24,000 bases of DNA from Tissierella praeacuta DSM 18095 (GCF_900128955.1 NZ_FQTY01000005.1:125856-149855), one strand, 5' to 3'. Positions 1,865 through 23,013 are shown, counted from the first letter of the stretch. The notes: generated by a model not told the origin, from the sequence alone. Translations and numbers: made by a program.

Positions 1865-1945
1865 ATTACCTCCTTATAATTTAAGTTTGTTAATATTCTG
1901 TCAATTTTCCCAATTTTCTGAAAGTTCTTCTTATAAAATAAGGTT

Positions 1946-3064: not shown

Positions 3065-3078
3065 AATGCAGTACCTAA

Positions 3079-4641: not shown

Positions 4642-4662
4642 TTAATCAATCCTTTCTATAGA

Positions 4663-6066
4663 TTATCCTTCGATGATTTTTCTAATGGCATTTACTAAAG
4701 TATCAATATCTTCCTTTAAATGAACTTCAGTAACACAGTACAAAGCCGATTGACCTAATTCAGGGAACTCCTCAGATAAATCTTTGCCACCAAATATACC
4801 TTCATCTAGTAATTTCTTATTTATCTCATTTACGGTTTTTCCAGTATTATTGAAATCAACTACAAATTCTTTAAATCCTATATTATTAAACCTTGAGCCT
4901 TTAACGCCTTTTACTTTAGATAGTTCTTCTATAGCGTATAAGGATTTCTGTATAATATTTTGCCCTAATTCAACCATTCCCTTAGGTCCCATTAAAGACA
5001 AATAAACTCCTGCTGTAATACCAAGCAGAGCAGTTTGTGTACCTACGTATTCCTTACCTTTCTCTCTCAAGTTTCCAAAGGAAGTTCTTTCATAGGCTAT
5101 ATCTCCAAATCCATATTCTCCTTCTTTTATAGTGGGAGCTACACCGAATAATCTAGATGGATACTCCATTACAAATCTTTCTTCATCTCTAGTAGAAATA
5201 AAACCTGATTGTCCTCCACCATAATTCATATGCATCCCCAAAGGTTGAAGATCTCCACATATAATATCTGCTCCATAGGATGATGGAGGTGCTATAACTC
5301 CCAAGCTACTTGGATCAACACCTACTACTGATATTGCACCAGCTTCATGAGCTATCTTAGAAATCTCAGCCCCTTGGTCTTCAATAAATCCTAAATATGA
5401 AGGATTCTCAAAATATACTGCTGCAGTATTATCAGAAATCTTTTTCCTCAAATCTTCTAAATCCATCTTTCCAGTTTCTTTATCATAATCAATTAAAGTA
5501 ATTTTAACCCCTGGATCACAATAATTTTTTATTATCATCAACCTTTCAGTACTTATAGTCCCAACAACTAAAGCTTCAGACCTTTCAGTAATTCTAGATG
5601 ACATCCTGAGGGATGTAGCAGCTCCTTGAGCCCAATCAAAGGTAGGAACATTTACAACATCCATATCAAGTAATTCCGCTAATAAGGACTCATATTCAAA
5701 CAAAGTCTGAAATCTACCATGGTCATTATATGGCTCTCCAGCATAAGCAGTCAAAAATTCAGATCTGCTATTTATTTCATCACAAACTGCTGGTACATAA
5801 TGCTGCCAGCATCCTGCTCCTAGAAAATTCAAATATTCCTTAGATGATATATTCTTTCTCAAAATTTTATCTATGCCTCTTTTTAATTCATACTCTGACT
5901 CAAAAGGCTTTGGCAAATTCAACGGTCTTTTTAATTTTAATTCTTCTGGTACTTCTGCATGTAATTCATCTAAAGATTTTAATCCTATTTTTTCTAACAT
6001 TTCCCTTTGAACTTCTAAATCTGAATTTGGAATATAGGGATGATTTTTAAATCCACGTATTGTCAT
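4663..6066 (-). CDS. gcvPA: Glycine dehydrogenase (decarboxylating) subunit 1-like protein (P-protein alpha paralogue, divergent)
   Basis: 467 aa. The N-terminus HPYIPNSDLEVQREMLEKIGLKSLDELHAEVPEELKLKRPLNLP and the FLGAG...SRSEFLTAY block parallel GcvPA, but the following AYTPYQPEISQG-type block is replaced by AYAGEPYNDHGRFQ. AGGAGGT RBS. Confidence 0.7.
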   Translation of the reverse strand: MTIRGFKNHPYIPNSDLEVQREMLEKIGLKSLDELHAEVPEELKLKRPLNLPKPFESEYELKRGIDKILRKNISSKEYLNFLGAGCWQHYVPAVCDEINSRSEFLTAYAGEPYNDHGRFQTLFEYESLLAELLDMDVVNVPTFDWAQGAATSLRMSSRITERSEALVVGTISTERLMIIKNYCDPGVKITLIDYDKETGKMDLEDLRKKISDNTAAVYFENPSYLGFIEDQGAEISKIAHEAGAISVVGVDPSSLGVIAPPSSYGADIICGDLQPLGMHMNYGGGQSGFISTRDEERFVMEYPSRLFGVAPTIKEGEYGFGDIAYERTSFGNLREKGKEYVGTQTALLGITAGVYLSLMGPKGMVELGQNIIQKSLYAIEELSKVKGVKGSRFNNIGFKEFVVDFNNTGKTVNEINKKLLDEGIFGGKDLSEEFPELGQSALYCVTEVHLKEDIDTLVNAIRKIIEG

Positions 6067-6087
6067 ACTTCTACCTCCTAAATTTTA

Positions 6088-6864
6088 TTATGCAATTCCT
6101 CCACCATCTACAACTAAAGCAGTTCCAGTAACCCAAGTTGATAAATCACTACATAAAAACAGTACTGCCTTTGCAATATCCAATGGTGTTCCCAGTCTTT
6201 CTAGGGGTCTGCCCTTAGCTGATTCCACAAGGAAAGCATCTATCTCCTTTTCTCCAAGCTGTCTTCCTTCATCTCTTAACATTGCTGTGTCAGTATCCCC
6301 AGGATTTATAGAGTTAACTCTAATATTTTGTGGTCCATGATCAATTGCCATGGCTCGAGTTAAATTTACAATTCCACCCTTTACAGCACAGTAAACAGCG
6401 GCCTTATCTCCACCTTTTAGTCCCCAGCCTGAACCAGTATTTATTATGCTTCCTCCTCCATTTTTAGCCATAATTGGTATTGTATATTTAGATAATAAAT
6501 ATGTTCCTTTAAGTCCTACATCAATTACAAAATCCCATTCTTCTTCTGTTAAATCTACTACTGTCTTTCTAACAGTAACCCCCGCATTATTAAATAATAT
6601 ATCAATTCTGCCAAATTCTTCTTCTATTGATTTAATAGTATTTTTACAATCTTCATTATTAGTCACATCGCATTTCTTGAAAATAGCAAAACTACCCTCA
6701 TTAATGATTTCTTTAGCTGCCGAGTCTCCTTTTTCTTGATTAACATCAAGTAGCACAACCTTTGCACCATGTTGAGCTAATAATTTTCCCGTTCCCAGTC
6801 CAATACCAGAAGCTCCACCTGAAATAACCGCTACTTTTCCCTCTAAATTTAATGGATTATTCAT
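6088..6864 (-). CDS. Short-chain dehydrogenase/reductase (SDR) family oxidoreductase
   Basis: GGASGIGLG cofactor motif, NNAG, and catalytic YCAVKGG (YxxxK). Start moved to the ATG at 6862-6864 (MNNPLNLEGK...), which has a GAGGGGGAG RBS. The longer track ORF (to 6963) would run through the sigma-54 promoter. Confidence 0.85.
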   Translation of the reverse strand: MNNPLNLEGKVAVISGGASGIGLGTGKLLAQHGAKVVLLDVNQEKGDSAAKEIINEGSFAIFKKCDVTNNEDCKNTIKSIEEEFGRIDILFNNAGVTVRKTVVDLTEEEWDFVIDVGLKGTYLLSKYTIPIMAKNGGGSIINTGSGWGLKGGDKAAVYCAVKGGIVNLTRAMAIDHGPQNIRVNSINPGDTDTAMLRDEGRQLGEKEIDAFLVESAKGRPLERLGTPLDIAKAVLFLCSDLSTWVTGTALVVDGGGIA

Positions 6865-6915
6865 AATTCTCCCCCTCACAAAATAGTTTTCGCCAAATGC
6901 TATTGGTATTACTAT

Positions 6916-6934
6916 CTTGCATAAATCATGCCAA
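6916..6934 (-). promoter_or_regulatory. Sigma-54 (-24/-12) promoter of the SDR-gcvPA-gcvPB-kinase-transporter operon
   Basis: Minus strand reads TTGGCATGATTTATGCAAG. The GG and GC dinucleotides have exactly the TGGCAC-N5-TTGCA spacing. It lies about 55 nt upstream of the SDR start and is divergent from a GAFTGA-type activator gene. Confidence 0.8.
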
Positions 6935-6953
6935 AAAATTAGATAAAAAATAT

Positions 6954-7067
6954 CTTTTAGCAATCTACCTATTTTTTCAGACTTTTAGCAATTTTATAAT
7001 TGTTTTATTGAGTTAATGTGGTATAATTAAATTGTCTTTATTGACAAATATAGCAACTTTTTTGCTA
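6954..7067. promoter_or_regulatory. Candidate enhancer (UAS) sites: repeated TAGCAA half-sites
   Basis: CTTTTAGCAAT occurs at 6954-6964 and 6982-6992 (28-bp period), and the palindrome TAGCAActtttTTGCTA lies at 7051-7067. All are upstream of the sigma-54 promoter in the divergent intergenic region. Confidence 0.35.
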
Positions 7068-7086
7068 GATATGGCAGGTGCCTGAT

Positions 7087-8799
7087 ATGATTGATTTAAA
7101 AAGCTTAAAAAGTAGTTTAGCAAATATAGTATCAACAATGGCTAACTTAACCAATATGGAATATGCAATATTTAACACCAATGCTGAATTAGTAAGTAGT
7201 ACACAAGTTTATTTGCAAAGGAAAGGTCTAAAAGTACATTTAACCTCTATAGAAGAAGTCTTAAATCAAGGAAATGTAATTGTGAATAAACCTGGACTTA
7301 TGAAATCATGTGTTGGATGCAGATTTGTTAATAACTGTCCTTCTACTATAGAAATTCTATCCTGTATAAAACTAAATGGAGAACCTATAGGTGTAGTGAG
7401 TCTCACATCATTTTCTCAAGAAGGACATAATATGATTGAAGAAAACATTCGAATATATACAGATATGTTGGAGGATATTTCAAACTTAATATCTATGTTT
7501 GCATTTAATGAAAACTCAAAAAAAGATACTCAAGTCTTACATGAAATAATTAGTAACATTATTGAAGAAACAGAAGATAACTATCTTATAGTAAATAATA
7601 GGGGTCTTTTAATTCATTGGACTAAAGGTATTGAAGAACTATTTTCTTATTGCGATTTATATACACAAACTATTGATTTAATGTTTCCTAAAGACATTAC
7701 TAATTGGATATTTAATGAAGAAAAACAGGGGAAAAAATATTGTGTTATAGAAGGATTTAAAGGAATTTTATACTCCAGACCTTTAAAAATAGAAGAAGAT
7801 ATAGTGGGTTACATTCTAAAATTAGAAAAAGATAAAAATAGTTCAAATTCACATATTAAAGAAGATTATTTAGGCTCCATTATCTCCAATGATTACAAAA
7901 TAGAAAATATAAAATCACAAATAAAAAAAATATCCAATTCATCTTCTTCAGTTTTAATAACTGGTGATACAGGCACAGGAAAGGAAGTAGTGGCAAAAGC
8001 AATTCACTATACAAGTAAAAGAGCTAATAATCCTTTCATTCCAATTAACTGTGCTAATATACCAGACTCTTTATTTGAATCTGAACTCTTTGGATATGAG
8101 GAAGGTGCTTTTACTGGTGCAAAAAAAGGTGGTAAATTAGGTTTGTTTGAATTGGCTAATGGTGGTTCAATCTTTTTAGATGAAATTGGTGAATTGCCAA
8201 TTTACTTACAAGCCAAATTACTTAGAGTTCTTCAAGAAAATGCTATACAAAGATTAGGTAGTATCACAAATATCCCAGTGGATATTAGAATAATAGCAGC
8301 TACTAATCAAGATTTAGAGTCAATGGTAAATGAAAATAAATTTAGAGCTGATTTGTTCTATAGATTAAATGTTATACCTATTTATTTACCTCCATTAAAT
8401 CAAAGATTATCGGATATAGACATACTCTCAACCCATTTTATAGAAAAATATAATAGAAAACTAATGAAAAACATTAATAATATTTCCAAAGAAGCCTTGG
8501 AACTTATGAAATCATATTCATGGCCAGGAAATGTAAGAGAACTTGAAAACACTATAGAATATGCAATTAATATGGAAGATACAGAAATTATTCATATTGA
8601 AAGCCTTCCCCATAGAATAAGAAAAAAAGCTAATGGAAAAAACGATTTTAAAGAGCTAATTGCACAAAAAGAAGCAGATTTAATTATAAATGTCCTCAAT
8701 AAACACGGTTGGGATTTAGAAGGAAAACAAAAAGCATCAAAAGAATTAGGAATTAGTATTAGAACATTATATAGAAAACTCAAAGAACTGGAAATATAG
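7087..8799 (+). CDS. Sigma-54-dependent transcriptional activator (bEBP) with an N-terminal sensor region, AAA+ core and C-terminal Fis-type HTH
   Basis: Walker A GDTGTGKE, the GAFTGA loop (ESELFGYEEGAFTGA), Walker B GGSIFLDEIGE, and the C-terminal HTH ASKELGISIRTLYRKLKEL. Start is either the ATG at 7087 (preferred, AGGTG 6 nt upstream) or the GTG at 7078. Confidence 0.9.
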   Translation: MIDLKSLKSSLANIVSTMANLTNMEYAIFNTNAELVSSTQVYLQRKGLKVHLTSIEEVLNQGNVIVNKPGLMKSCVGCRFVNNCPSTIEILSCIKLNGEPIGVVSLTSFSQEGHNMIEENIRIYTDMLEDISNLISMFAFNENSKKDTQVLHEIISNIIEETEDNYLIVNNRGLLIHWTKGIEELFSYCDLYTQTIDLMFPKDITNWIFNEEKQGKKYCVIEGFKGILYSRPLKIEEDIVGYILKLEKDKNSSNSHIKEDYLGSIISNDYKIENIKSQIKKISNSSSSVLITGDTGTGKEVVAKAIHYTSKRANNPFIPINCANIPDSLFESELFGYEEGAFTGAKKGGKLGLFELANGGSIFLDEIGELPIYLQAKLLRVLQENAIQRLGSITNIPVDIRIIAATNQDLESMVNENKFRADLFYRLNVIPIYLPPLNQRLSDIDILSTHFIEKYNRKLMKNINNISKEALELMKSYSWPGNVRELENTIEYAINMEDTEIIHIESLPHRIRKKANGKNDFKELIAQKEADLIINVLNKHGWDLEGKQKASKELGISIRTLYRKLKELEI

Positions 8800-14440: not shown

Positions 14441-14548
14441 TTATTTCTTTAGAGCCTTAGGTGCCTTAGGTTCATAATATAAAAATGCAGAAATTGTGTT
14501 TGGAGATTCCTCTGCAACTTTTTTTGCTACCTTGCTTATTTTCTCCAT
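14441..14548 (-). CDS. agrD: AgrD-type autoinducing-peptide precursor (35 aa, no cysteine)
   Basis: Hand translation gives MEKISKVAKKVAEESPNTISAFLYYEPKAPKALKK. It starts 4 nt after the agrB stop, has an amphipathic N-terminus, and ends in an EPxxPKxL-type charged tail as in clostridial AgrD. Not in the ORF track because it is too short. Confidence 0.7.
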   Translation of the reverse strand: MEKISKVAKKVAEESPNTISAFLYYEPKAPKALKK

Positions 14549-14552
14549 CCCT

Positions 14553-15161
14553 TTACTTAAAACTTTCTTCATATCCATCTTCCTCCCCTTTAGTTTTATT
14601 ATTAATACTTAATGCCACTATCATTAAAGAACTACTAATGGCAAAGAAGTAATTAATTTCATTTACTAAGCCTAGTACTGTTAATATATGGCATATGGTT
14701 GCTAAAGCCAAGATAACACTTAACCATTTATCCTTTTTCGTATTGCTTTTATTTATAATCTCTTGATTTACAATTCTATTTTTATGTACTGTAGGTTTAG
14801 AGAGATAAATTTTTATAGTAGCATAAATAATAAATATTATTCCTATAATTTCTTTTAAATTCTGATTCAGCCATTTTTCTAAAAACACTATAATAATAAA
14901 ATTTATACTTGTAACAGATAAACATCCTAAATATGTCTTACTATGATAGCCTCCAACATTTCTCCTAAGTAAAATCAGTGTACCTAGGTAAATCACAGCA
15001 GATACTGCTTGTCCCATAATAATTCCAATCAATATAACAATTAGAGATGTTAAGATACTAGTTCCTATTATTTTCATTCCATAAAATATTATTTCAGCTT
15101 CATCTTCATCCATTGTGGATTGTGAAAAACAATATCTAATAAACTGATTTATCACTTTCAA
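14553..15161 (-). CDS. agrB: AgrB-family AgrD-processing membrane endopeptidase
   Basis: 202-aa polytopic protein with RRNVGGYHSKTYLGC. The His and Cys are spaced 7 residues apart, as for the catalytic H77/C84 of S. aureus AgrB. Start is the TTG at 15161 or the GTG at 15155. Confidence 0.85.
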   Translation of the reverse strand: MKVINQFIRYCFSQSTMDEDEAEIIFYGMKIIGTSILTSLIVILIGIIMGQAVSAVIYLGTLILLRRNVGGYHSKTYLGCLSVTSINFIIIVFLEKWLNQNLKEIIGIIFIIYATIKIYLSKPTVHKNRIVNQEIINKSNTKKDKWLSVILALATICHILTVLGLVNEINYFFAISSSLMIVALSINNKTKGEEDGYEESFK

Positions 15162-15265
15162 TCCTAACCCCTTTCTCTTACAATAATTATAACAAGTAAA
15201 TTTTTAAATAGTTAAAAATTGGAGTAAGTGGTCTTTTTTTGGATTGAACGGTTATTTAAGAGTGA
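15110..15265. repeat. agr divergent-promoter segment, copy 1 (agrB 5' end, promoter and conserved 50-bp core at 15204-15253)
   Basis: 156 bp that differ at only 2 positions from 16203-16358. The core TTAAATAGTTAAAAATTGGAGTAAGTGGTCTTTTTTTGGATTGAACGGTT recurs at 20892-20941. The minus-strand promoter TTAACT-18-TATAAT spans 15186-15215. The imperfect direct repeat ACCGTTCAA-N11-ACCACTTAC (minus strand) is a candidate LytTR box pair. Confidence 0.8.
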
Positions 15266-15440
15266 ATACCATAAATAACACAATAAAATCTTATGTGAAT
15301 TGCAGTGGAAAGAAAAGATATATTTATTTAAAATTACATCCTCATAAAAATTCCCTACGTAATAAAACAAAAACATATATATGCCTGTTAATAATAATTT
15401 CCTTAATAAAATCAAAAGCAATGTATTTCCTCTAGACATT
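15244..15440 (+). pseudogene. Decayed fragment of an AgrC-like histidine kinase (N-box/ATPase region)
   Basis: The frame reads ..NTINNTIKSYVNCSGKKRYIYLKLHPHKNSLRNKTKTY.., which parallels LFNTIDNAIEACLNYSGKNKYIYLELYPDGNFLCYKIKNTY of the intact kinase (22.69-22.81 kb). There is no N-terminal domain or H-box, and it is fused directly to the promoter repeat. Confidence 0.65.
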
Positions 15441-15526
15441 GCTTCAGTATAATAGAATATATTATAAATAAATATATTGGATTTATGAATAACTCGATTG
15501 TTATTGTTCTTTTTAACTCCTCCTAT

Positions 15527-15913
15527 TTATTGTTTATAAATTTTTCCTTCAAATGTTGCTAAATAGTACCCCGTTATGGGGTCTATAGTTATGCTTCCTA
15601 CTCGTGCAAGTACTCCTGACCACCAGTACCCATCTGTGTATTCACTGTATTCTACAGCTGCAGGAATATTATTCTTTGAAGAATATCTTTTTTGTATACT
15701 TATAAATTTTCCTCCAAAAAGCGGTTCAGGATTAGCTTTTATATATTCCTCATACTCCTCCTGTGAAAGATTAGGTGAATGTTTTATTGAATCCTGTGTA
15801 TATTGTCCCTCACTTTGTCTATTAAAGTTGTTTTCAGCAAATATTGTATTGTAAGAAAAAAGTACAGACAAAAGAATCATCATTGATAGACAAGTACCTA
15901 ATTTTCTTTTCAT
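15527..15913 (-). CDS. Secreted hypothetical protein (signal peptide)
   Basis: 128 aa. The N-terminal MKRKLGTCLSMMILLSVLFSYNTIFA looks like a Sec signal. GGAGG RBS. Family not recognisable. It lies downstream of agr promoter copy 2. Confidence 0.65.
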   Translation of the reverse strand: MKRKLGTCLSMMILLSVLFSYNTIFAENNFNRQSEGQYTQDSIKHSPNLSQEEYEEYIKANPEPLFGGKFISIQKRYSSKNNIPAAVEYSEYTDGYWWSGVLARVGSITIDPITGYYLATFEGKIYKQ

Positions 15914-15989
15914 ACCATTTACCTCCTTCTATTTTTGTTGTTCTTTTTATACCATATATGTCTGCTTTTTATTACTGATTTTTCATTCT

Positions 15990-16088
15990 TTACCAATGAT
16001 TTATGGTGGTATTTACAAGGAAAAATGTAAATTCTATATTTGTTGACCCTTCTGTATTCTTCTTTACTTCATTACTTATTTTCTCCAT
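15990..16088 (-). CDS. AgrD-related small peptide (32 aa), divergent and possibly decayed
   Basis: Hand translation gives MEKISNEVKKNTEGSTNIEFTFFLVNTTINHW. It shares MEKIS..KK with AgrD and the same junction sequence (TTATTTTCTCCATCC), but lacks the EP-type tail and any Cys. Confidence 0.35.
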   Translation of the reverse strand: MEKISNEVKKNTEGSTNIEFTFFLVNTTINHW

Positions 16089-16254
16089 CCCTCCCACTAC
16101 TGTTGATACATGACATATTGTTGCTAAAGCTAGGATAATACTTAGCCATATATCCTTTTTTGTATTACTTTTATTTATAATTTCTTTTAAATTCTGATTC
16201 AGCCATTGTGGATTGTGAAAAACAATATCTAATAAACTGATTTATCACTTTCAA
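16089..16254 (-). pseudogene. agrB remnant, copy 2 (5' end plus patches, internally deleted)
   Basis: The first ~17 codons are identical to agrB (MKVINQFIRYCFSQSTM). The sequence then jumps to patches matching agrB 14.69-14.88 kb. The reading frame stops after ~27 codons. Confidence 0.8.
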
Positions 16255-16358
16255 TCCTAACCCCTTTCTCTTACAATAATTATAACAAGTAGATTTTTAA
16301 ATAGTTAAAAATTGGAGTAAGTGGTCTTTTTTTGGATTGAAGGGTTATTTAAGAGTGA
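16203..16358. repeat. agr divergent-promoter segment, copy 2
   Basis: 154 of 156 positions identical to 15110-15265. TTAACT-18-TATAAT is retained (16279-16308, minus strand). Confidence 0.85.
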
Positions 16359-16438: not shown

Positions 16439-16465
16439 GAAAAAAAGAGGGCTGTTTAACCCTCG
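16439..16465 (-). terminator. Intrinsic terminator ending the RiPP-like operon
   Basis: Minus strand reads GAGGGTtaaacaGCCCTC followed by TTTTTTT, 9 nt after the stop of precursor C. Confidence 0.7.
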
Positions 16466-16473
16466 ATAATCAG

Positions 16474-16638
16474 TTATTCAACTAAACATGGTACTCCACC
16501 ACAATTACAGCCACAACCACATCCACAGCCACTCCCAGAACTACAACCACGTCCGCAGGAACATCCTTGTACACAGCCTGCACCACATCCTGCAACTATC
16601 AAATCTCTTAAACTTCTCTCATCTCTTAAAATTTCCAT
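16474..16638 (-). CDS. Cys/Gly-rich precursor peptide C (54 aa, 11 Cys)
   Basis: Hand translation gives MEILRDERSLRDLIVAGCGAGCVQGCSCGRGCSSGSGCGCGCGCNCGGVPCLVE. GGGGAGGA RBS 8 nt upstream. The N-terminus is shared with the other two peptides. Not in the ORF track. Confidence 0.75.
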   Translation of the reverse strand: MEILRDERSLRDLIVAGCGAGCVQGCSCGRGCSSGSGCGCGCGCNCGGVPCLVE

Positions 16639-16774
16639 AATCTTATTCCTCCCCTCATATAATATATATCACTATTCCCATGGGGTAATAATACAGGTAG
16701 ATGTTGTGATTTCCTTTTTCCACCAAACCAACCAAGTAATTACTCATATCATAGGAATTAGAGATGTCTTCATT

Positions 16775-18598
16775 TTAAACATAGTATTTCGCCTGGGTTT
16801 GATAATATTTAGCATAATCTCCATTTTTATCTATAAGTTCTCTATGAGAGCCCTGTTCAAATATAGTCTTATTCTTTATAAAAATAATTTGATCAGCAGT
16901 TGATGCACAAGTCATTCTATGAGAAATATAAATAACAAGTTTATCTGCAGCTAAATTCTTGAATTTGCTTAATAAATCATCTTCAGATATTGGGTCTAAT
17001 GCAGATGACGGCTCGTCCAGCATTATTACTGGTGTTTCTCTAAACAAAGCTCTAGCCAATGCAAGCTTTTGATTTTCTCCTCCTGAAAGAATTACTCCGT
17101 CTTCATAAAAAATCTTATCAAGGTTTGTATGTATCCCTTTAGGTAAAGTTTTAATCTTACCACCTAATCCAACTTCTTGAAGATATGAAGAAATCTTAAA
17201 TTCATTACTATCATTGGATTTATTCAAAGCTACATTTTCAGCAATTGTAAAAGAAAAGTATTTAAAATCTTGAAAAACTATGCTAAATATATTTCTATAA
17301 TCCATATAATCTATTTGATTTATTGGAATATTATTTAAGTATATGGTTCCTGAAGTTGGTTCATATAATCCGCTTATTAAATTAATTAGGGTACTCTTTC
17401 CTGCTCCATTTTCTCCAACAATAACGTAGACTTTACCATATTCAAAAACATAATTTATATTTTCCAGAACATATTTATCTGTTCCTGGATAAGCAAAATA
17501 TACATTCTCTAAACGTATTGTTAAATCATTACCTTTTAATACACTCTCTATTGTTTTTATTTCTCCATTTTTTAATAAGATATCATTATTTCTCTTAATA
17601 TCACTTTCCAGCTCCATAAATTCTCTAAAAGATTCTATATACTTTCCATTTATATTTAATTGAGTTATAAATCCTACAAAGTTTAATATAGCACTTGAAA
17701 GCTGACTTGTAGCAGTAAAATATTGAGAAAATTGTCCCACAGTTATATTACCAATAAAAGTTTTCCATGCTAAATATAAATAAATGCCGTTACTTTTTAA
17801 ATTTTCTCCTATTATACTTACTATTTTAATATTCATACTCGTATTGTATAATTTTTTCAATCTAATTCTTAAAAAGCTTAGAGTAGTCAAATATTTGTTC
17901 ATAATCCAGTCAACAAATCCAAACATCTTCATTTCTTTTGCAGAACTACTCTCCCCCATAATCCTTATATAATAGTTAAGAATACGTGTTAAATATATAT
18001 TTTCATCTCTTTGTGAGATTTTCCAATTCTCCGATTTTAAATTTAGATAAACAGAAAAAAATGAAAAAAGTATTATAACGAAAATTAAATTAATATCTGC
18101 AGAGATTATTATAATGGTAGTAGATATAATTAATACTATACTTGATAAAGAATGAAATAAACTATTTATTAAATTGATACCTATTCCTTTATAGATTATA
18201 TCTTGGGCTAAAGCTAATTTTTGATGAGTTTCCGGCAAGTCTAATTGTGCCATATCTAATGATACGACCTTTTTATTAATAATTAATAAAAAATGCATTG
18301 CATAAAGATGCCCATTAAGATTCACATATTTTTCAGTCAAAATCGCAGTAATTAGTGATGCTGTCAATTGAATTAAAATATAAATTAAAATATAGTTTAC
18401 TATTTCACTAAAATTCTTACGGTTAATTAATCCATCAATTATTAGTTTCGGTATTATTATATATATTAATGGAATTAAACCTTCTATAATTGAAATTATT
18501 CCTTGGGATATGACATAGGATTTACTAAACTCAAAAACATATTTGAAAAAATAAAAATTATTCTTTATATTGTTTTTATAATTTTTTTTAGAGTCCAT
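16775..18598 (-). CDS. ABC exporter, fused permease and ATPase (no N-terminal C39 peptidase domain)
   Basis: 607 aa with an N-terminal six-TM-type domain. Walker A GENGAGKST, signature LSGGENQKLALARAL, Walker B IMLDEPSSALD. AAAGGAG RBS. Confidence 0.9.
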   Translation of the reverse strand: MDSKKNYKNNIKNNFYFFKYVFEFSKSYVISQGIISIIEGLIPLIYIIIPKLIIDGLINRKNFSEIVNYILIYILIQLTASLITAILTEKYVNLNGHLYAMHFLLIINKKVVSLDMAQLDLPETHQKLALAQDIIYKGIGINLINSLFHSLSSIVLIISTTIIIISADINLIFVIILFSFFSVYLNLKSENWKISQRDENIYLTRILNYYIRIMGESSSAKEMKMFGFVDWIMNKYLTTLSFLRIRLKKLYNTSMNIKIVSIIGENLKSNGIYLYLAWKTFIGNITVGQFSQYFTATSQLSSAILNFVGFITQLNINGKYIESFREFMELESDIKRNNDILLKNGEIKTIESVLKGNDLTIRLENVYFAYPGTDKYVLENINYVFEYGKVYVIVGENGAGKSTLINLISGLYEPTSGTIYLNNIPINQIDYMDYRNIFSIVFQDFKYFSFTIAENVALNKSNDSNEFKISSYLQEVGLGGKIKTLPKGIHTNLDKIFYEDGVILSGGENQKLALARALFRETPVIMLDEPSSALDPISEDDLLSKFKNLAADKLVIYISHRMTCASTADQIIFIKNKTIFEQGSHRELIDKNGDYAKYYQTQAKYYV

Positions 18599-18635
18599 AT
18601 AAGCTCCTTTTTTCTTGATAATATAAACATCAAGG

Positions 18636-18673
18636 GGCTGGTATTTAAATAAATAACAATTTAAGTACCAGCC
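18636..18673 (-). promoter_or_regulatory. Stem-loop between precursor A and the ABC gene (possible partial terminator or processing site)
   Basis: GGCTGGTA-22 nt-TACCAGCC, 14 nt after the precursor A stop. There is no clean U-tract. Confidence 0.35.
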
Positions 18674-18686
18674 AACTGATATTTAA

Positions 18687-18914
18687 CTAATTTGCAGTCC
18701 CGCAGCCGCAGCCACAGCCCATTCCATTTGGAGGGCAGGTATTACCGCCACCTTCACCAGAACAATTACAACCACACCCATAGCCAGGATAATCCCCGCC
18801 ATTCCCTGGCGGAAAGCCTGTACAGCCACAGCCATAACCATTTTGACAACCACAGCCACAACCCATACCAGGATTATCATTACCATTAAAGCATGAATTT
18901 CTAACTATCTCCAT
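18687..18914 (-). CDS. Cys/Gly-rich precursor peptide A (75 aa, 13 Cys, 24 Gly; four GCGC blocks)
   Basis: MEIVRNSCFNGNDNPGMGCGCGCQNGYGCGCTGFPPGNGGDYPGYGCGCNCSGEGGGNTCPPNGMGCGCGCGTAN. AGAGGTGAT RBS 5 nt upstream. Of the three overlapping ORFs here, only this frame has an RBS and shares its N-terminus and core type with peptides B and C. Confidence 0.75.
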   Translation of the reverse strand: MEIVRNSCFNGNDNPGMGCGCGCQNGYGCGCTGFPPGNGGDYPGYGCGCNCSGEGGGNTCPPNGMGCGCGCGTAN

Positions 18915-19102
18915 GGAATATCACCTCTTTTCTAAAATATATTATTAATATATTTTAAGCCCATGAATTAATAAAATATTGTCTGAAATAAACTAGATTA
19001 CTATATTCATACTCATTTATATCTTTAAAATCTCAATATTTTAATATACGATTTTCATATTAATACCTACTAATCAAGTCCTTAAAAATTACATACTTTG
19101 AA

Positions 19103-19210
19103 TTATGCTTTAGTCCCACAACCACAACCACATCCACATCCGCAGCCACATCCTGCCCCACTAGCCATAATCGATATACCATTATTTTTTTCATCTCTAA
19201 TTATATCCAC
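19103..19210 (-). CDS. Cys/Gly-rich precursor peptide B (35 aa; the core is a pure (GC)6 repeat)
   Basis: Hand translation from GTG 19208-19210 gives MDIIRDEKNNGISIMASGAGCGCGCGCGCGCGTKA. GGAGGTG RBS 7 nt upstream. It lies 73 nt downstream of the radical SAM gene. Not in the ORF track. Confidence 0.7.
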   Translation of the reverse strand: MDIIRDEKNNGISIMASGAGCGCGCGCGCGCGTKA

Positions 19211-19283
19211 ATTATCACCTCCACATTAATATATTATTTATTATTCTATATTCATGTGCTTAAAACCAAAGAATTTAAGCATA

Positions 19284-20621
19284 TTACCTATAAGTACTTA
19301 TTAAATTTTCTAATTCGCTTTCTTCAATTTTGGGATCACAAAAATATTTTTCCCCATGAACACGTCCATTTACACATCTACCGCCAAAACAAATTGGTAA
19401 TACCCTACACTCCTTGCACTCATCTTGCAAGTCAACCTTATTACTAATCCACCTAGAATGTTTATCTTCAGCTAAATTCATTGAACCATCTTCTGATATG
19501 TATCCAATTTTATTAAGATCATCATCTAATGATAAGGTACATTTTAAAATCGAACCATCATAATCAATTATTAAATTATTGTGTTTAGAAGCATAACATA
19601 CCCTACTATAAGGTCGTGTCATAACATCCACCACATCATTGTTTATGTTTAGCTGTTTTATTACTTTAGCAATATTTACAGAGGATTTAGCAACATCTAA
19701 TTTATCTAGTATATCTAATTTATCATCATTACAGCCACCAAGTCTTTTTATACCTTCATAATATATACTAAACCTATTATCAAAATTTTCTTTTATATAT
19801 TTATAAAATTCTTCTGCCCGTAAAAATACTTCATCATTAAAATTAGTGCGTATTGTTACTTTAAAATTATAATCCGTGCTAGCCATATATTTCAAATTTT
19901 CCATTATCTTGTCCCAACTACCTCTACCATCAACACTAGCCCTATACTTATCATGAGTTTCTTTAAATCCATCTACTGTTATCTGATAATATCTACAGTT
20001 TAAAGAAGAAAGAACTTCAAACCTTTCTGGATATATCAACGCACCATTTGTTGTTGCGCTTGCACTATAAGGAATTCCGTACTCTTCACATAATGATTTT
20101 ACTTTTCCTAAAAAAGCTACAACTTTATCATATTCTACAAATGGTTCTCCGCCAAAAAGTGATATAGCAACACCTGTATATAATTTATTTCTTAGAGAAT
20201 TATCTATATACTTCAATATACTGCTATAAAGGTCTTCTGTCATAGCTTTATTCTCATGTTCTTCATAGCAGTAAATACATCTGAGATTACATTGCCTTGT
20301 TACAATTAAAGTCAGTACTAAGGTAGTATCTCTTACAACATCCCTTTCATAACAATACCTAGCAAATTCATATTCTCTTCTATCTTTAGGAACTAGAATC
20401 CCTTTTTCATAAAAAGTCAATATCATCTCATCAGAGTTATCATAAATAATTGTATCTTTTTCCATTATCTCTCTCAATTTTCTAACATTTATTTCTGAAT
20501 AAATGTAAATTATTGCACCAGAAAGAGAATTATAAACCAAATATGTACCGTCCTCTTTAGGTATAAAAAAATTATAATAGCTTTTTTTCAATACATTTGG
20601 TTTTATCATAAGCTTTTCCAT
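19284..20621 (-). CDS. Radical SAM/SPASM peptide-modifying enzyme with an N-terminal RRE-like extension
   Basis: 445 aa. CNLRCIYC (CxxxCxxC) sits about 110 residues in. The C-terminal SPASM pattern is CYASKHNNLIIDYDGSILKC (Cx13Gx4C), then CKECRVLPICFGGRC, then FCDPK. GAGGAG RBS. Confidence 0.9.
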   Translation of the reverse strand: MEKLMIKPNVLKKSYYNFFIPKEDGTYLVYNSLSGAIIYIYSEINVRKLREIMEKDTIIYDNSDEMILTFYEKGILVPKDRREYEFARYCYERDVVRDTTLVLTLIVTRQCNLRCIYCYEEHENKAMTEDLYSSILKYIDNSLRNKLYTGVAISLFGGEPFVEYDKVVAFLGKVKSLCEEYGIPYSASATTNGALIYPERFEVLSSLNCRYYQITVDGFKETHDKYRASVDGRGSWDKIMENLKYMASTDYNFKVTIRTNFNDEVFLRAEEFYKYIKENFDNRFSIYYEGIKRLGGCNDDKLDILDKLDVAKSSVNIAKVIKQLNINNDVVDVMTRPYSRVCYASKHNNLIIDYDGSILKCTLSLDDDLNKIGYISEDGSMNLAEDKHSRWISNKVDLQDECKECRVLPICFGGRCVNGRVHGEKYFCDPKIEESELENLISTYR

Positions 20622-20696
20622 TAAATCATCTCCTCATATAATATGATCATCCCCAACTTATAAGCCACCTAAGTATATTTAATTCTTTACATAGCT

Positions 20697-20850
20697 ATAT
20701 TTCCCCTATCCTCCCCTCTAGTTTTAATATCATTAAAAAACTGCTAATGGAAAAGAAGTAATTAAATTTCATCCATTAATCACATTACTGTCAAATTTAT
20801 TATTGTTAGAATTAAGATAATAAGCCATATATCCTTTTTGCATTGCTTAT
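20697..20850 (-). pseudogene. agrB remnant, copy 3 (3' third only)
   Basis: Aligns by eye with agrB 14.57-14.75 kb, for example CTGCTAATGGAAAAGAAGTAATTAAATTTCAT versus CTACTAATGGCAAAGAAGTAATTAATTTCAT. It is joined directly to the agr 5'-UTR and has no intact frame. Confidence 0.7.
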
Positions 20851-20856
20851 ATCATA

Positions 20857-20943
20857 CTCTTTCCCTTATAATAATAATAGCAGGTACGATTTTAAATAGT
20901 TAAAACTTGGAGTAAGTGGTCTTTTTTTGGGCTGAACGGTTTT
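20857..20943. repeat. agr divergent-promoter segment, copy 3 (between the rSAM operon and the LytTR regulator gene)
   Basis: Core 20892-20941 is near-identical to 15204-15253. The minus-strand TTAACT-18-TATTAT (20874-20903) keeps the -35, -10 and 18-nt spacing although the spacer sequence has diverged. Confidence 0.8.
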
Positions 20944-20956
20944 TAGGAGGATAGTT

Positions 20957-21682
20957 ATGTTCAAAATTGGGATTTGTGAGGATAATAAAATTTTTTCATT
21001 AGAATTGAAGTCAATTATTGAAAGAAAATTTACTCAGTACAATTTAGAATCTAAAATAAATTGCTTTTATTCAGGAGAAGACACTCTTGAAGGTATTCTA
21101 AATGCAAAGGAAAGGTATGATATTATATTTTTTGATATAGAGCTACCAAAATTAAATGGAATAGAAGTAGCACGAAAAATTAGGGAATTATATGATGATA
21201 CCATATTTATATTTATCACATATCTAGATGAAAAGGTATATGAAGCTTTAGATTTAACAATTTTTCATTTTATTAGAAAAAGTCATTTTCAAAAGGAAAT
21301 TAATTTAATTCTTGATTCATTAATAAAAAAACTTGACTATTTAACTGAAAAATATGCCTTTCCCATAGGGGAAGATAATGTTTATTTTAGACTTTATGAT
21401 ATTTTATATCTTGAAATATTAAATAGACAATTAATTATACATACTAAAGAAAATGTATATACTTCAACCTATCGTTCCTTAAAAGATATTTCATTTGATT
21501 TAACAAAAAAACATTTTTATGAAGTATATCGAGGGATTATGGTTAATCTCAATCATGTAAAGGATTTTATAGATAATAAAATTATCCTTTCTAATGGAGA
21601 TATAGTTTATATAGCAAGAAGAAGACTCAATGGATTTAAAGAAGAATTCTATAAATATATTTCATCCAAGAGAGAGGGATAA
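20957..21682 (+). CDS. agrA: LytTR-family response regulator (AgrA-like)
   Basis: 241 aa with an N-terminal receiver domain (YDIIFFDIELPKLNG acceptor-Asp region) and a C-terminal LytTR-type domain (..YRGIMVNLNHV..). AGGAGG RBS. Confidence 0.85.
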   Translation: MFKIGICEDNKIFSLELKSIIERKFTQYNLESKINCFYSGEDTLEGILNAKERYDIIFFDIELPKLNGIEVARKIRELYDDTIFIFITYLDEKVYEALDLTIFHFIRKSHFQKEINLILDSLIKKLDYLTEKYAFPIGEDNVYFRLYDILYLEILNRQLIIHTKENVYTSTYRSLKDISFDLTKKHFYEVYRGIMVNLNHVKDFIDNKIILSNGDIVYIARRRLNGFKEEFYKYISSKREG

Positions 21683-21684
21683 TA

Positions 21685-23013
21685 ATGTCACGTCTTAATA
21701 TTATATTAAACTTTTTATTCTGTATAATAGATGCTATGATCTTTATAAATCTGTTATATATTTTTAAAGATAATAAAAGCGAATACAAATTCACTGATAA
21801 TATCTCTATAATAGCAGGAATATCCATTGCAATATTCTTCTTTACTCAGTTGGGAATTATTCCTTACACTAAGGTAATCCTTATTTCAATAGTTCTGTTT
21901 TTTATAACATTTTTATATGAACTTAGATTATATCAACAACTTTTAATTGTTATATTATATTATTTTATATTAATTATATCAGAATTATTAATTACATTAT
22001 TAGCTTCAAATATTTTAAGTGTAGGTGTAGATAGTATTGGAAAACACAACTATTCTTTCTTTTTTTTAGGAACAATTAGTAAGTTCTTATCTATATTAAT
22101 TCTTTCGTTAGTTAAAAGAAGATTTGCCAATAGGAAAATCATACTTCCTATAATTCTAAATTATATTATTATATTGATATTACTAATATCTACTATTTCA
22201 ATGGTTTTATTGTTTTATTCTAATTTAAATTCGCATTCTAAAAGTATTCAATTTATTTTATTTCTTGTTTGTTTATTTACCTTATTTACTAGCATAGGCA
22301 TCTTGATAATTTATTTTTATGCAAACGATTTTTATATTGATTTACAAAAAGAAACTACTAAAAAAATTTATGATAAGTCATACGAAAAATTTATAGCTAA
22401 TGCTGAATTGAGAAATGACTCTTTAGCTAAAATATGGCATGATATAGGAAACCATATTAAAGTCTTAGAAAAAATGAACAAAATAGAAAATAATACTGAT
22501 ATTGAATATATTAATTCAATAAAAAATAGACTTAAATCAATTCCCAATACCATAAATACTGGAAATAAATTAATAGATATAATATTGAATGATAAGTATT
22601 CAGAAGGTATTATGAAAGGTATAGACTTTGATATAAAAGCAATAGCTCCTCCTAAAATAGACATTGATGATATGGACTTAAGTTCTATATTGTTTAATAC
22701 TATAGATAATGCAATAGAAGCTTGTCTAAATTATAGTGGGAAGAATAAATATATTTATTTAGAGTTATATCCAGATGGAAACTTTTTATGTTATAAAATT
22801 AAAAACACATATACTCCTATTAAAAATACCTCTGTTAAAAATTTTTACTTTAACAAAAAACAATATATTTCTTCTGGATATGGGCTTAGTATAATAAAAG
22901 ATATTGTAAATAAGTATGATGGCTACATGGATATAAATAAAGATGATAAAGAGTATTCAGTTACTATTGTTCTTCATTTAAATAACCAATCAGTCCAAGA
23001 AATAACCACTTAG
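21685..23013 (+). CDS. agrC: AgrC-like (HPK10-type) membrane sensor histidine kinase
   Basis: 442 aa with about 6 N-terminal TM helices. H-box KIWHDIGNHIKVL, N-box LFNTIDNAIEA, G-box SSGYGLSIIKDIV. Starts 3 nt after the regulator stop. Confidence 0.85.
   Translation: MSRLNIILNFLFCIIDAMIFINLLYIFKDNKSEYKFTDNISIIAGISIAIFFFTQLGIIPYTKVILISIVLFFITFLYELRLYQQLLIVILYYFILIISELLITLLASNILSVGVDSIGKHNYSFFFLGTISKFLSILILSLVKRRFANRKIILPIILNYIIILILLISTISMVLLFYSNLNSHSKSIQFILFLVCLFTLFTSIGILIIYFYANDFYIDLQKETTKKIYDKSYEKFIANAELRNDSLAKIWHDIGNHIKVLEKMNKIENNTDIEYINSIKNRLKSIPNTINTGNKLIDIILNDKYSEGIMKGIDFDIKAIAPPKIDIDDMDLSSILFNTIDNAIEACLNYSGKNKYIYLELYPDGNFLCYKIKNTYTPIKNTSVKNFYFNKKQYISSGYGLSIIKDIVNKYDGYMDINKDDKEYSVTIVLHLNNQSVQEITT

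What the first reader, a model, noticed from the sequence alone, without database searches (positions are those of the whole stretch)
16474..20621. Radical SAM/SPASM cluster encoding three (Gly-Cys)n-repeat peptides plus an ABC exporter: candidate uncharacterised RiPP or metal-binding peptide system
Seen directly: one minus-strand operon contains an rSAM enzyme, three small genes and a permease-ATPase ABC exporter, and ends in a terminator. The rSAM enzyme has CxxxCxxC, a full SPASM Cys pattern, and about 110 N-terminal residues where RRE-type leader-binding domains normally sit. The three small genes have cores dominated by alternating Gly-Cys: (GC)6 in B, four GCGC blocks in A, and GCGCGCGCNC in C. 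Established: SPASM rSAM enzymes next to Cys-rich peptides (sactipeptides, SCIFF/ranthipeptides) make Cys-derived thioether cross-links. Inference: in pure GCGCGC tracts almost the only acceptor residue is glycine. Side-chain (ranthipeptide) links are therefore largely impossible there. This leaves Cys-S to Gly-C-alpha links, a different chemistry, or a thiolate-rich metal-binding product. No leader peptidase and no immunity gene are visible. I vaguely recall that in-silico surveys of rSAM maturases listed clostridial Cys-rich precursor families, so the family may be catalogued. I cannot verify that, and I know of no product structure for such repeats.
Basis: partly seen in the sequence, partly recalled or inferred. 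Interest (0 to 1): 0.9.

Follow-up and report, generated by a model that had tools for sequence, protein, structure and literature searches.

The report
Gly-Cys repeat peptide maturation operon
A Tissierella praeacuta operon encodes three small peptides built from alternating glycine and cysteine, a radical SAM enzyme that most likely cross-links them, and an exporter; the set is conserved in other anaerobes, uncharacterised, and here sits behind a quorum-sensing promoter.

Summary
On the minus strand, 16447-20621 holds a radical SAM/SPASM enzyme, three Shine-Dalgarno-preceded small genes with Gly-Cys repeat cores, an ABC exporter and a terminator.

The pairing is not chance. All 10 loci whose enzyme is at least 49% identical carry peptides with the same short leader (M-x-[IVL]-[ILV]-R-[DENQ]) and the same G-x-G-C-G-C(-G-C) blocks. 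The ABC exporter follows the enzyme or its peptides in most of them.

The enzyme is closest in sequence and predicted fold to CteB, a thioether-forming maturase. It stays far below every curated NCBIfam cutoff, and no model hits the peptides, so I found the family in no curated library and no paper.

The best reading is a new precursor class of a known kind of RiPP. The enzyme most likely makes Cys-derived thioethers, probably Cys-S to Gly-C-alpha (sactionine), which has precedent in StsA, BlaA and streptosactin. The chemistry remains inference.

- The operon sits behind a copy of the agrB promoter, inside a gutted agrBD unit and divergent from LytTR/GHKL regulator genes, so quorum-sensing control is likely.
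- The blocks are joined by strict 2-residue linkers.
- The same core occurs with a double-glycine leader, beside a distantly related rSAM enzyme, in loci with Gram-negative-type gene content.

The parts
19284..20621 (-). Radical SAM/SPASM peptide maturase (445 aa) with an N-terminal RRE-like domain
   Evidence: Pfam Radical_SAM and Fer4_12. CxxxCxxC plus 7 invariant SPASM Cys. Best PDB match is CteB: E 5e-24 by profile, and Foldseek E 1e-19, TM 0.65-0.70 over the full length. AF2 model pLDDT 90.3 with a beta-strands-then-three-helices N-terminal domain. Best NCBIfam hit is CefB at 196 bits against a cutoff of 600.
19103..19210 (-). Precursor peptide B (35 aa, GTG start): MDIIRDEKNNGISIMASGAG(CG)6TKA
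   Evidence: ORF with GGAGGTG ribosome-binding site. Leader and core match the family consensus.
18687..18914 (-). Precursor peptide A (75 aa) with four G-x-G-C-G-C blocks
   Evidence: This exact sequence is absent from the 15-billion-protein collection, so it appears not to have been called as a gene there.
18619..18689 (-). Strong stem-loop between peptide A and the ABC gene, with no U-run (a likely mRNA-stabilising or attenuating hairpin)
   Evidence: MFE -26.3 kcal/mol, z = -4.2 against shuffles. The function is inferred.
16775..18598 (-). ABC exporter, fused permease-ATPase (607 aa), no C39 peptidase domain
   Evidence: Pfam ABC_tran. NCBIfam exporter families match, all below cutoff. It is 65% identical to the ABC gene that follows the homologous enzyme in Tepidibacter.
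16474..16638 (-). Precursor peptide C (54 aa): MEILRDERSLRDLIVAGCGAGCVQGCSCGRGCSSGSGCGCGCGCNCGGVPCLVE
   Evidence: A peptide in the same position after the ABC gene is found in Lachnospiraceae locus L003.
16447..16464 (-). Intrinsic terminator ending the operon
   Evidence: 7-bp GC-rich stem followed by a T7 run.
20865..20953 (-). agrB-type promoter module upstream of the operon (-35 TTAACT near 20903, extended -10 TATTAT near 20874)
   Evidence: The 24-nt core CCAAAAAAAGACCACTTACTCCAA occurs exactly three times (15219, 16312, 20907; 0 expected by chance).
20690..20780 (-). Remnant of the agrB 3' end and the agrD ribosome-binding site between the promoter and the rSAM gene
   Evidence: 85-90% identical to 14581-14659 (families D10 and D17). 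Sequence read.
20957..21682 (+). LytTR-family response regulator, divergent from the operon
   Evidence: Pfam Response_reg and LytTR.
21685..23013 (+). AgrC-like membrane histidine kinase (GHKL HATPase_c_5)
   Evidence: Pfam HATPase_c_5, E 2e-16.
14441..15161 (-). Intact agrB (14553-15161) and agrD (14441-14578), the likely source of the signal that drives the shared promoter
   Evidence: Pfam AgrB, E 8e-28. TIGR04223 AgrD, 35.4 bits against a cutoff of 19.

Best explanation
This is a biosynthetic operon for a ribosomally made, post-translationally modified peptide (RiPP) in Tissierella praeacuta.

Proposed mechanism, step by step:
- Three precursors share a short leader (M-[DE]-I-[IVL]-R-[DN]-[ES]).
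- The N-terminal RRE-like domain of the radical SAM/SPASM enzyme is proposed to bind that leader.
- Their cores are G-x-G-C-G-C(-G-C) blocks.
- The enzyme cleaves SAM, abstracts a hydrogen from the core and joins Cys sulfur to carbon, as its nearest structural relative CteB does.
- In these cores almost the only acceptor is glycine. The most likely product is therefore a peptide densely stapled by Cys-S to Gly-C-alpha (sactionine) bridges, either as a hairpin ladder or as local i to i-3 rings.
- The co-conserved ABC transporter exports the product.
- Leader removal, if it happens, is done by an enzyme encoded elsewhere.
- Transcription most likely starts at a copy of the agrB promoter and is controlled by the adjacent LytTR/AgrC-like two-component system, which would make it a quorum-sensing output.

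What is shown: gene content, the conserved enzyme-peptide(-exporter) association, the fold and the Cys ligand pattern, and the promoter homology.

What is inferred: leader binding, the thioether chemistry, the acceptor identity and ring topology, export, and the regulation.

My probabilities: genuine RiPP system about 0.85; Cys-derived thioether about 0.6; specifically Cys-Gly sactionine about 0.4.
For: Anatomy:
- The genes, ribosome-binding sites and terminator are as described.

Conservation:
- All 10 loci with an enzyme at least 49% identical carry 1-3 downstream peptides with the same leader and G-x-G-C-G-C blocks. These are the window, L001-L004 and L084-L088.
- An ABC gene of about 600 aa follows the enzyme or its peptides in most of these loci. 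The one I compared, in Tepidibacter, is 65% identical to the window's ABC protein.
- The peptide coding sequences of L001 and L002 differ by 13 synonymous and 5 nonsynonymous codons.
- More distant clade members (40-47% identity) keep the leader but carry minimal C-G-x-G-C cores.
- The same G-x-G-C-G-C-G-C core occurs with a double-glycine leader next to a rSAM enzyme that is 26% identical, in loci with Gram-negative-type gene content.

Enzyme:
- CteB is the best solved relative by sequence profile and by fold.
- CxxxCxxC and 7 SPASM Cys are invariant.
- PapB, a thioether former, is the best-scoring family among those I know to be biochemically characterised, at 122 bits.

Precedent for Gly acceptors:
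- StsA has Cys2-Gly15, Cys4-Gly13 and Cys6-Gly11; BlaA has Cys13-Gly22 and Cys15-Gly20 (PMC10288494).
- Streptosactin has Cys31-Gly34 (PMC8172795).

Architecture compatible with this chemistry:
- 24 of 25 short linkers between blocks are exactly 2 residues long, often x-N before G. Cys and Gly therefore keep opposite parity, and every block Cys has a Gly at i-3.

Regulation:
- An exact 24-nt promoter core is shared with two agrB upstream regions.
- A LytTR regulator and a GHKL kinase are encoded divergently.
Against: - There is no biochemical or expression data.
- The enzyme is below the curated cutoff of every NCBIfam maturase family, so its chemistry cannot be transferred by family membership.
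- The six catalytic-site-proximity positions defined in PMC10288494 read Y119, F156, T190, T215, T362, L363. My mapping comes from the CteB alignment. This is a mixture of the CteB profile (F, F, T, S, H, Q) and the StsB profile (Y, T, I, S, K, L), so it does not decide between a sactionine-forming and a ranthionine-type enzyme.
- Pfam does not recognise the N-terminal domain as PqqD/RRE.
- No leader peptidase or immunity gene is in the operon.
- C-x-C arrays are also typical of metal-thiolate binding.
- Quorum-sensing control rests on promoter homology alone. Only some homologous loci have quorum-sensing-type regulators nearby.
Confidence: 0.6

Rival explanations
1. The product is a secreted, thiolate-rich metal-binding peptide (a metallophore or metallothionein-like molecule). 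The rSAM enzyme makes only a few modifications, or a different one, and most Cys stay free to bind Cu, Zn or Fe.
For: The cores are C-x-C arrays at 17-20% Cys, a pattern typical of metal-thiolate clusters (established knowledge). Long cores such as peptide A have more Cys than a simple hairpin would use. A CsoR-type metal repressor gene lies near the Tepidibacter locus, and ArsP genes lie near L086.
Against: No metal-related gene is conserved across the loci. The window operon has none, and feoB lies 5 kb away across unrelated genes. The closest enzymes consume Cys thiols in thioethers. Free poly-thiol peptides would oxidise once outside the cell.
Confidence: 0.15
2. The enzyme performs a different radical reaction on the core. 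Candidates are Cys-to-formylglycine-type oxidation as in anSME, epimerisation, Cys thioethers to the few non-Gly residues (a ranthipeptide), or C-C or C-N cross-links.
For: The enzyme is below all family cutoffs, and anSME, DynA and YhhB also score (74-87 bits). anSME and TigE are among the top fold matches. SPASM enzymes closely related in sequence are known to differ in chemistry (PMC10288494). Blocks often contain or adjoin D, N, S or T residues, for example GCGCDC in L004.
Against: Peptide B and L085a have almost pure GC cores with no side-chain acceptors. The full-length fold match, including the N-terminal domain, is best to the thioether-forming CteB. The SPASM region has 7 invariant Cys rather than the 8 of anSME. 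The count of 7 is; the anSME comparison is from my own knowledge.
Confidence: 0.2
3. The small ORFs are not genes. The Gly-Cys tracts would then be hexanucleotide DNA repeats, and the rSAM enzyme and ABC protein would act on something else.
For: The tracts do register as 12-nt-spaced DNA repeats (family D2). Peptides A and C are absent from public protein sets.
Against: Ribosome-binding sites and start codons precede every copy in 10 loci. A leader outside the repeat is conserved. Gly and Cys codons vary synonymously, and 13 synonymous against 5 nonsynonymous differences separate two orthologues. The tracts lie in a single reading frame, and their position next to the enzyme is conserved.
Confidence: 0.03

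Closest known systems
CteB/SCIFF and PapB-type ranthipeptide systems (rSAM/SPASM thioether maturases of Clostridia)
   Same: An rSAM core with an N-terminal RRE-like domain and a 7-Cys SPASM domain. CteB is the best solved structural match, and PapB is the best-scoring family among those I know to be characterised. The precursor is Cys-rich and repetitive, and the clusters are compact. SCIFF ranthipeptides have been linked to quorum sensing in clostridia (Chen et al. 2020, as cited in PMC8102284).
   Different: Scores are far below the family cutoffs: 122 against 340 for PapB, and 71 against 425 for the SCIFF maturase. The cores lack the Asp, Glu, Thr or Asn side-chain acceptors those enzymes use. 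No SCIFF model hits the peptides.
Cys-to-Gly sactipeptides: StsA/StsB, BlaA/BlaB, streptosactin (GggA/GggB)
   Same: Alternating C-x-C-x-C donors and G-x-G-x-G acceptors in StsA give nested Cys-Gly sactionines. Streptosactin has an i to i+3 Cys-Gly ring and is regulated by quorum sensing. The alternating Gly/Cys register of the present peptides would allow either topology.
   Different: According to the paper, StsB is MftC-like and works with a separately encoded RRE protein, StsC. GggB did not appear among the window enzyme's 25 best NCBIfam hits and scored only 43 bits against a cutoff of 650 for the 47%-identical homologue in L089. Here donors and acceptors are interleaved in the same tract rather than segregated, and there are up to 14 Cys per peptide.
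NCBIfam CefB (Cys-every-fifth, NF038107) and TIGR04463 rSAM/SPASM RiPP maturases
   Same: These are the nearest curated families (196 and 181 bits), aligned over the full length. By their names they are Cys-rich-peptide maturases. To my knowledge their chemistry is uncharacterised.
   Different: Both are far below cutoff (600 and 525). The precursors here have Cys at every second residue, not every fifth, and no precursor model matches them.
agr-type quorum-sensing loci (AgrBDCA)
   Same: An intact AgrB and AgrD, a LytTR regulator and a GHKL kinase are present, and the operon carries an agrB-type promoter.
   Different: The unit next to the regulator genes has lost agrB and agrD and carries the RiPP operon instead. 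The regulatory link is inferred.

Membership tests
rSAM/SPASM RiPP maturase (sacti-/ranthisynthase-like) | CxxxCxxC radical SAM cluster motif | tested here: met
   C111, C115 and C118 are invariant in 30 homologues. Pfam Radical_SAM, E 5e-17.
rSAM/SPASM RiPP maturase (sacti-/ranthisynthase-like) | C-terminal SPASM domain with 7 Cys for two auxiliary clusters | tested here: met
   C342, C361, C402, C405, C411, C416 and C428 are invariant. The Pfam SPASM score is just under the cutoff, 20.5 against 21.5. The region aligns with the CteB SPASM domain.
rSAM/SPASM RiPP maturase (sacti-/ranthisynthase-like) | RRE (leader-recognition) domain | tested here: inconclusive
   The AF2 N-terminal domain has four strands followed by three helices. 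The full-length Foldseek and HMM alignments to CteB start at about residue 15. No Pfam PqqD hit was found.
rSAM/SPASM RiPP maturase (sacti-/ranthisynthase-like) | Adjacent Cys-containing precursor that co-occurs with the enzyme | tested here: met
   10 of 10 loci with an enzyme at least 49% identical carry such peptides.
Sactipeptide | Cys-S to acceptor C-alpha thioether in the product | not testable with these tools
   This needs MS/MS, desulfurisation labelling or NMR. The catalytic-site-proximity residues (Y, F, T, T, T, L) are intermediate between CteB and StsB.
CefB family (NF038107) | HMM score of at least 600 bits | tested here: not met
   196.2 bits.
TIGR04463 family | HMM score of at least 525 bits | tested here: not met
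   181.1 bits.
PapB ranthipeptide maturase (NF047865) | HMM score of at least 340 bits | tested here: not met
   122.3 bits. From my own knowledge, PapB's substrates carry C-x3-D/E motifs; the cores here are G-x-G-C-G-C blocks instead.
SCIFF system (TIGR03974 maturase) | HMM score of at least 425 bits and a SCIFF precursor | tested here: not met
   70.6 bits, and no NCBIfam hit for any of the peptides.
agr quorum-sensing locus | AgrB, AgrD, a LytTR regulator and an AgrC-like kinase | tested here: met
   PF04647, E 8e-28. TIGR04223, 35.4 bits against a cutoff of 19. PF04397 and PF14501.
agr quorum-sensing locus | The operon is transcribed from an agr-responsive promoter | tested here: inconclusive
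   The promoter module is homologous to the agrB upstream regions, with the 24-nt core identical. No expression data exist, and no LytTR box has been verified.

The most novel reading that the evidence does not exclude
The enzyme may convert interleaved (Gly-Cys)n tracts into a previously unseen scaffold. One form would be a continuous ladder of Cys-Gly sactionines, up to about one bridge per two residues. Another would be fused six-membered S,N-heterocycles formed between neighbouring residues. The result would be a rigid sulfur-rich rod released as a quorum-sensing-controlled signal, toxin or metal chelator. The same core appears beside a distantly related rSAM enzyme with a double-glycine leader in loci with Gram-negative-type gene content, which would imply a widespread scaffold that has been missed.
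Probability: 0.25. Interest if true: 0.85.

Novelty: new variant of a known kind. Interest (0 to 1): 0.66.

Why it matters
rSAM/SPASM enzymes are a major source of new peptide chemistry, and what they do is set largely by their substrates. A conserved precursor class made almost entirely of alternating Gly and Cys does not fit ranthipeptide logic. It would extend the few known Cys-Gly sactionines to a dense, repetitive format.

The system is compact (one enzyme, short leaders, one exporter) and comes from a cultured type strain, T. praeacuta DSM 18095. It is therefore directly testable by co-expression.

The replacement of agrBD by a RiPP operon behind a retained agr promoter is also a clear example of how a secondary-metabolite operon can be wired into quorum sensing.

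Tried and rejected
- Literature searches for Gly-Cys, GCGCGC or CGCGC precursors, agr-linked rSAM RiPPs, CefB/OhkG/FlmE/TIGR04463 and Tissierella RiPPs found no description of this family.
- The supplements of PMC10288494, a compendium of about 15,000 rSAM RiPP enzymes, are not held, so I could not check whether the enzyme is listed there.
- A metagenome scan with the single protein returned only three distant loci.
- Pfam found no PqqD/RRE hit in the N-terminal domain, and no ABC_membrane hit in the N-terminal half of the ABC protein.
- The peptide profile search over 1.84 billion representatives gave only 12 hits, one of them spurious (P0149). The family is therefore either rare or mostly not called as genes.
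- I attempted catalytic-site-proximity profiling by hand. The result was ambiguous.
- I considered and rejected the idea that the tracts are non-coding microsatellites.
- I rejected membership of the CefB, TIGR04463, PapB, SCIFF, Clo7bot, CcpM and GggB families because the HMM scores fall below their cutoffs.

Full report
**1. What is there**

The minus strand between 16447 and 20621 carries the following, in order:
- a 445-aa radical SAM gene (19284-20621);
- peptide B (19103-19210, GTG start, MDIIRDEKNNGISIMASGAGCGCGCGCGCGCGTKA);
- peptide A (18687-18914, 75 aa, four GCGC-type blocks);
- a 607-aa fused permease-ATPase ABC gene (16775-18598);
- peptide C (16474-16638, 54 aa, ...GSGCGCGCGCNCGGVPCLVE).

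Each small gene has a GGAGG-type ribosome-binding site. A GC-rich hairpin followed by a T-run at 16464-16447 ends the unit. A strong hairpin without a U-run lies between peptide A and the ABC gene (-26.3 kcal/mol, z -4.2). That arrangement is common where a precursor must be made in excess over its exporter. The function is my inference.

Of 379 six-frame segments in the window, only these three contain GCGC. They are 17-20% Cys against 1.1% in the large ORFs, and they use mixed Gly and Cys codons.

Exact protein matches identify the organism as Tissierella praeacuta DSM 18095. Peptides A and C are not in the 15-billion-protein collection, so they appear not to have been called as genes.

**2. 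The enzyme**

- Pfam finds Radical_SAM and Fer4_12.
- C111/C115/C118 and seven C-terminal Cys are invariant across 30 homologues. Read against the sequence, they fit the SPASM spacing.
- A profile of the family finds CteB (5WGG/5WHY) as the best solved relative (E 5e-24, aligned from residue 15 to 423).
- An AlphaFold model (pLDDT 90.3) matches CteB best over its whole length (Foldseek E 1e-19, TM 0.65-0.70). The next matches are TigE, anSME, ChlB and SuiB.
- The N-terminal 100 residues fold as strands followed by three helices, as RRE domains do. Pfam's PqqD model does not hit, so I rate the RRE as probable, not proven.
- In NCBIfam the best families are CefB (196 bits, cutoff 600), TIGR04463 (181/525), FlmE/OhkG, geopeptide, Clo7bot and PapB (122/340). 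None reaches its cutoff.

The enzyme therefore belongs to the thioether-maturase neighbourhood of the SPASM superfamily but to no curated family.

**3. Is the pairing conserved?**

Yes. Homologues of the enzyme exist in Tepidibacter thalassicus (68% identity) and in many Lachnospiraceae and other Clostridia assemblies.

In every locus with an enzyme at least 49% identical that I could read (L001-L004, L084-L088, plus the window: 10 of 10), one to three small genes follow the enzyme or the ABC gene. They encode M-x-[IVL]-[ILV]-R-[DENQ]..., then about 10-15 variable residues, then G-x-G-C-G-C(-G-C) blocks. All have ribosome-binding sites. Two orthologous peptide genes differ by 13 synonymous and 5 nonsynonymous codons.

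An ABC gene of about 600 aa follows the enzyme or its peptides in most of these loci. The Tepidibacter one is 65% identical to the window's ABC protein.

Among about 80 loci with enzymes at most 37% identical, none has such peptides next to the enzyme.

Clade members at 40-47% identity keep the leader but have short cores:
- MKIIRESFDQGFNPLHNTGCPCEGAENVGCKA
- MVMTIVRSEVVATLIENIICGYGCKL
- four tandem copies of ...VINIFACGLGCI
- ...QIVCGVQIGCNCGCGTS

The common denominator is C-G-x-G-C. The GC repeats look like an expansion of overlapping copies of that motif.

**4. Architecture of the cores**

Blocks are G-x-G-C-(x-C)n. In 24 of 25 cases the short linker between blocks is exactly two residues (x-N, x-S, T-T...), so Gly and Cys keep opposite parity across blocks. 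Long linkers do not keep it.

Two consequences follow; both are my inference. First, any hairpin with an even-length turn (x-N-G-x is a classical turn) places each Cys opposite a Gly. Second, the conserved G-x-G prefix gives every block Cys a Gly at i-3. Either a nested ladder or local small rings would therefore be geometrically served.

**5. A second context for the same core**

A profile search recovered peptides with a double-glycine leader (LPLDxIEVLDxEL...GG) followed by GSGCGCGC-xS-GAGCGCGC cores (P0132-P0134, and a further one in L091). They sit next to a glycosyltransferase, a rSAM/SPASM enzyme only 26% identical to ours, an outer-membrane beta-barrel protein and a C39-peptidase ABC transporter. 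That rSAM enzyme has the same top NCBIfam neighbours, also below cutoff.

The recurrence of the core with a different leader, exporter and cell-envelope type argues that the Gly-Cys block itself is the functional substrate.

An exhaustive HMMER scan of 1.84 billion representatives found only 11 genuine peptides. The family is therefore rare or mostly not called as genes.

**6. Likely chemistry**

This part is inference.
- The nearest enzymes I know to be characterised (CteB, PapB) join Cys sulfur to a carbon of another residue.
- In peptide B and L085a the core is essentially only Gly and Cys, so Gly C-alpha is the only abundant acceptor.
- Cys-Gly sactionines are established: three nested ones in StsA, two in BlaA (PMC10288494) and Cys31-Gly34 in streptosactin (PMC8172795).
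- I mapped the six catalytic-site-proximity positions of that paper through the CteB alignment. They read Y119, F156, T190, T215, T362, L363, which is intermediate between CteB (F, F, T, S, H, Q) and StsB (Y, T, I, S, K, L), so the test does not decide.

I put thioether formation at about 0.6 and Cys-Gly sactionine specifically at about 0.4. A different radical reaction gets about 0.2. A mainly metal-binding thiolate product gets about 0.15; no metal gene is conserved in the neighbourhoods.

**7. Regulation**

- The operon is divergent from a LytTR response regulator (20957-21682) and a GHKL AgrC-like kinase (21685-23013).
- Downstream lie an intact agrB/agrD pair (14441-15161) and a deleted second copy (15990-16358).
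- An 85-nt module containing a -35 TTAACT and an extended -10 occurs three times: before agrB, before the agrB remnant and before the rSAM operon. Its 24-nt core is identical in all three, with 0 expected by chance.
- Between that promoter and the rSAM start are remnants of the agrB 3' end and the agrD ribosome-binding site.

The RiPP operon thus occupies the place of agrBD in the unit adjacent to the sensor genes. Quorum-sensing control is therefore likely but untested. Some homologous loci have AgrB fragments or RNPP-type regulators nearby, and others do not.

SCIFF ranthipeptides have been linked to agr signalling in clostridia (Chen et al. 2020, as cited in PMC8102284).

**8. Novelty and verdict**

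The system works like a sacti-/ranthipeptide pathway and fits that general kind. It fails the membership test for every curated family I tried. No model or paper I could find describes Gly-Cys repeat precursors. I cannot exclude that the enzyme is listed in large compendia.

I class it as a new variant of a known kind, with moderately high interest. It is conserved, compact, comes from a cultured type strain, and could plausibly yield an unusually dense thioether scaffold.

Noticed in passing
window 14441-16358 and 20690-20953: The agr region is a patchwork. It holds an intact agrBD, a second agrB with an internal deletion plus a divergent agrD-like ORF (15990-16254), and a third, gutted copy in front of the rSAM operon. 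All three carry the same promoter module.
   Followed up: partly
window 15265-15491: A fragment 73% identical to the 3' part of the histidine kinase gene (22696-22933) lies upstream of agrB. This suggests past duplication or recombination of the whole agr unit.
   Followed up: no
window 15527-15913 (-): A 128-aa ORF with a signal-peptide-like N-terminus and no Pfam or NCBIfam hit sits between the two agr copies. Its function is unknown.
   Followed up: no
L091 1392-1679 and 4890-5168; L093 8001-8234; L094 1230-1463: Gly-Cys repeat cores with a double-glycine leader sit beside a glycosyltransferase, a rSAM/SPASM enzyme 26% identical to the window's, an outer-membrane beta-barrel protein and a C39-ABC transporter. 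This looks like a parallel system in what appear to be Gram-negative (Bacteroidota-like) metagenome contigs.
   Followed up: partly
L089 8467-8985: Four tandem, near-identical 35-39-aa genes (...RRVSKMTVVSSGVSTYGWVINIFACGLGCI) follow a 47%-identical enzyme, with RNPP/TPR-HTH regulators upstream. They form a sister precursor type with a minimal C-G-x-G-C core.
   Followed up: partly
L086 10932-12506; L088 1459-4527: Some homologous loci carry a second, different radical SAM gene. In L088 a second ABC transporter accompanies it, so several RiPP systems are clustered there.
   Followed up: no
L042 7391-7699; L062 7400-7747: Syntrophomonas loci with an enzyme only about 27-29% identical have about 100-aa downstream ORFs containing ICGCGGGSPICGCDCP. 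This is another C-G-C-bearing candidate precursor in the wider superfamily.
   Followed up: no
window 401-8799: A sigma-54 enhancer-binding protein (7078-8799, +) is divergent from a minus-strand gene run: an SDR, GcvPA- and GcvPB-like glycine dehydrogenase subunits, an NAD-kinase-like protein and a Na+/H+ antiporter family protein. This is probably an amino-acid catabolic operon and is unrelated to the finding.
   Followed up: no
P0149 (protein library): A 1930-aa, perfectly repetitive predicted protein scored against the peptide profile through 21 short stretches. It looks like a translation of tandem-repeat DNA and I take it to be a false positive.
   Followed up: no
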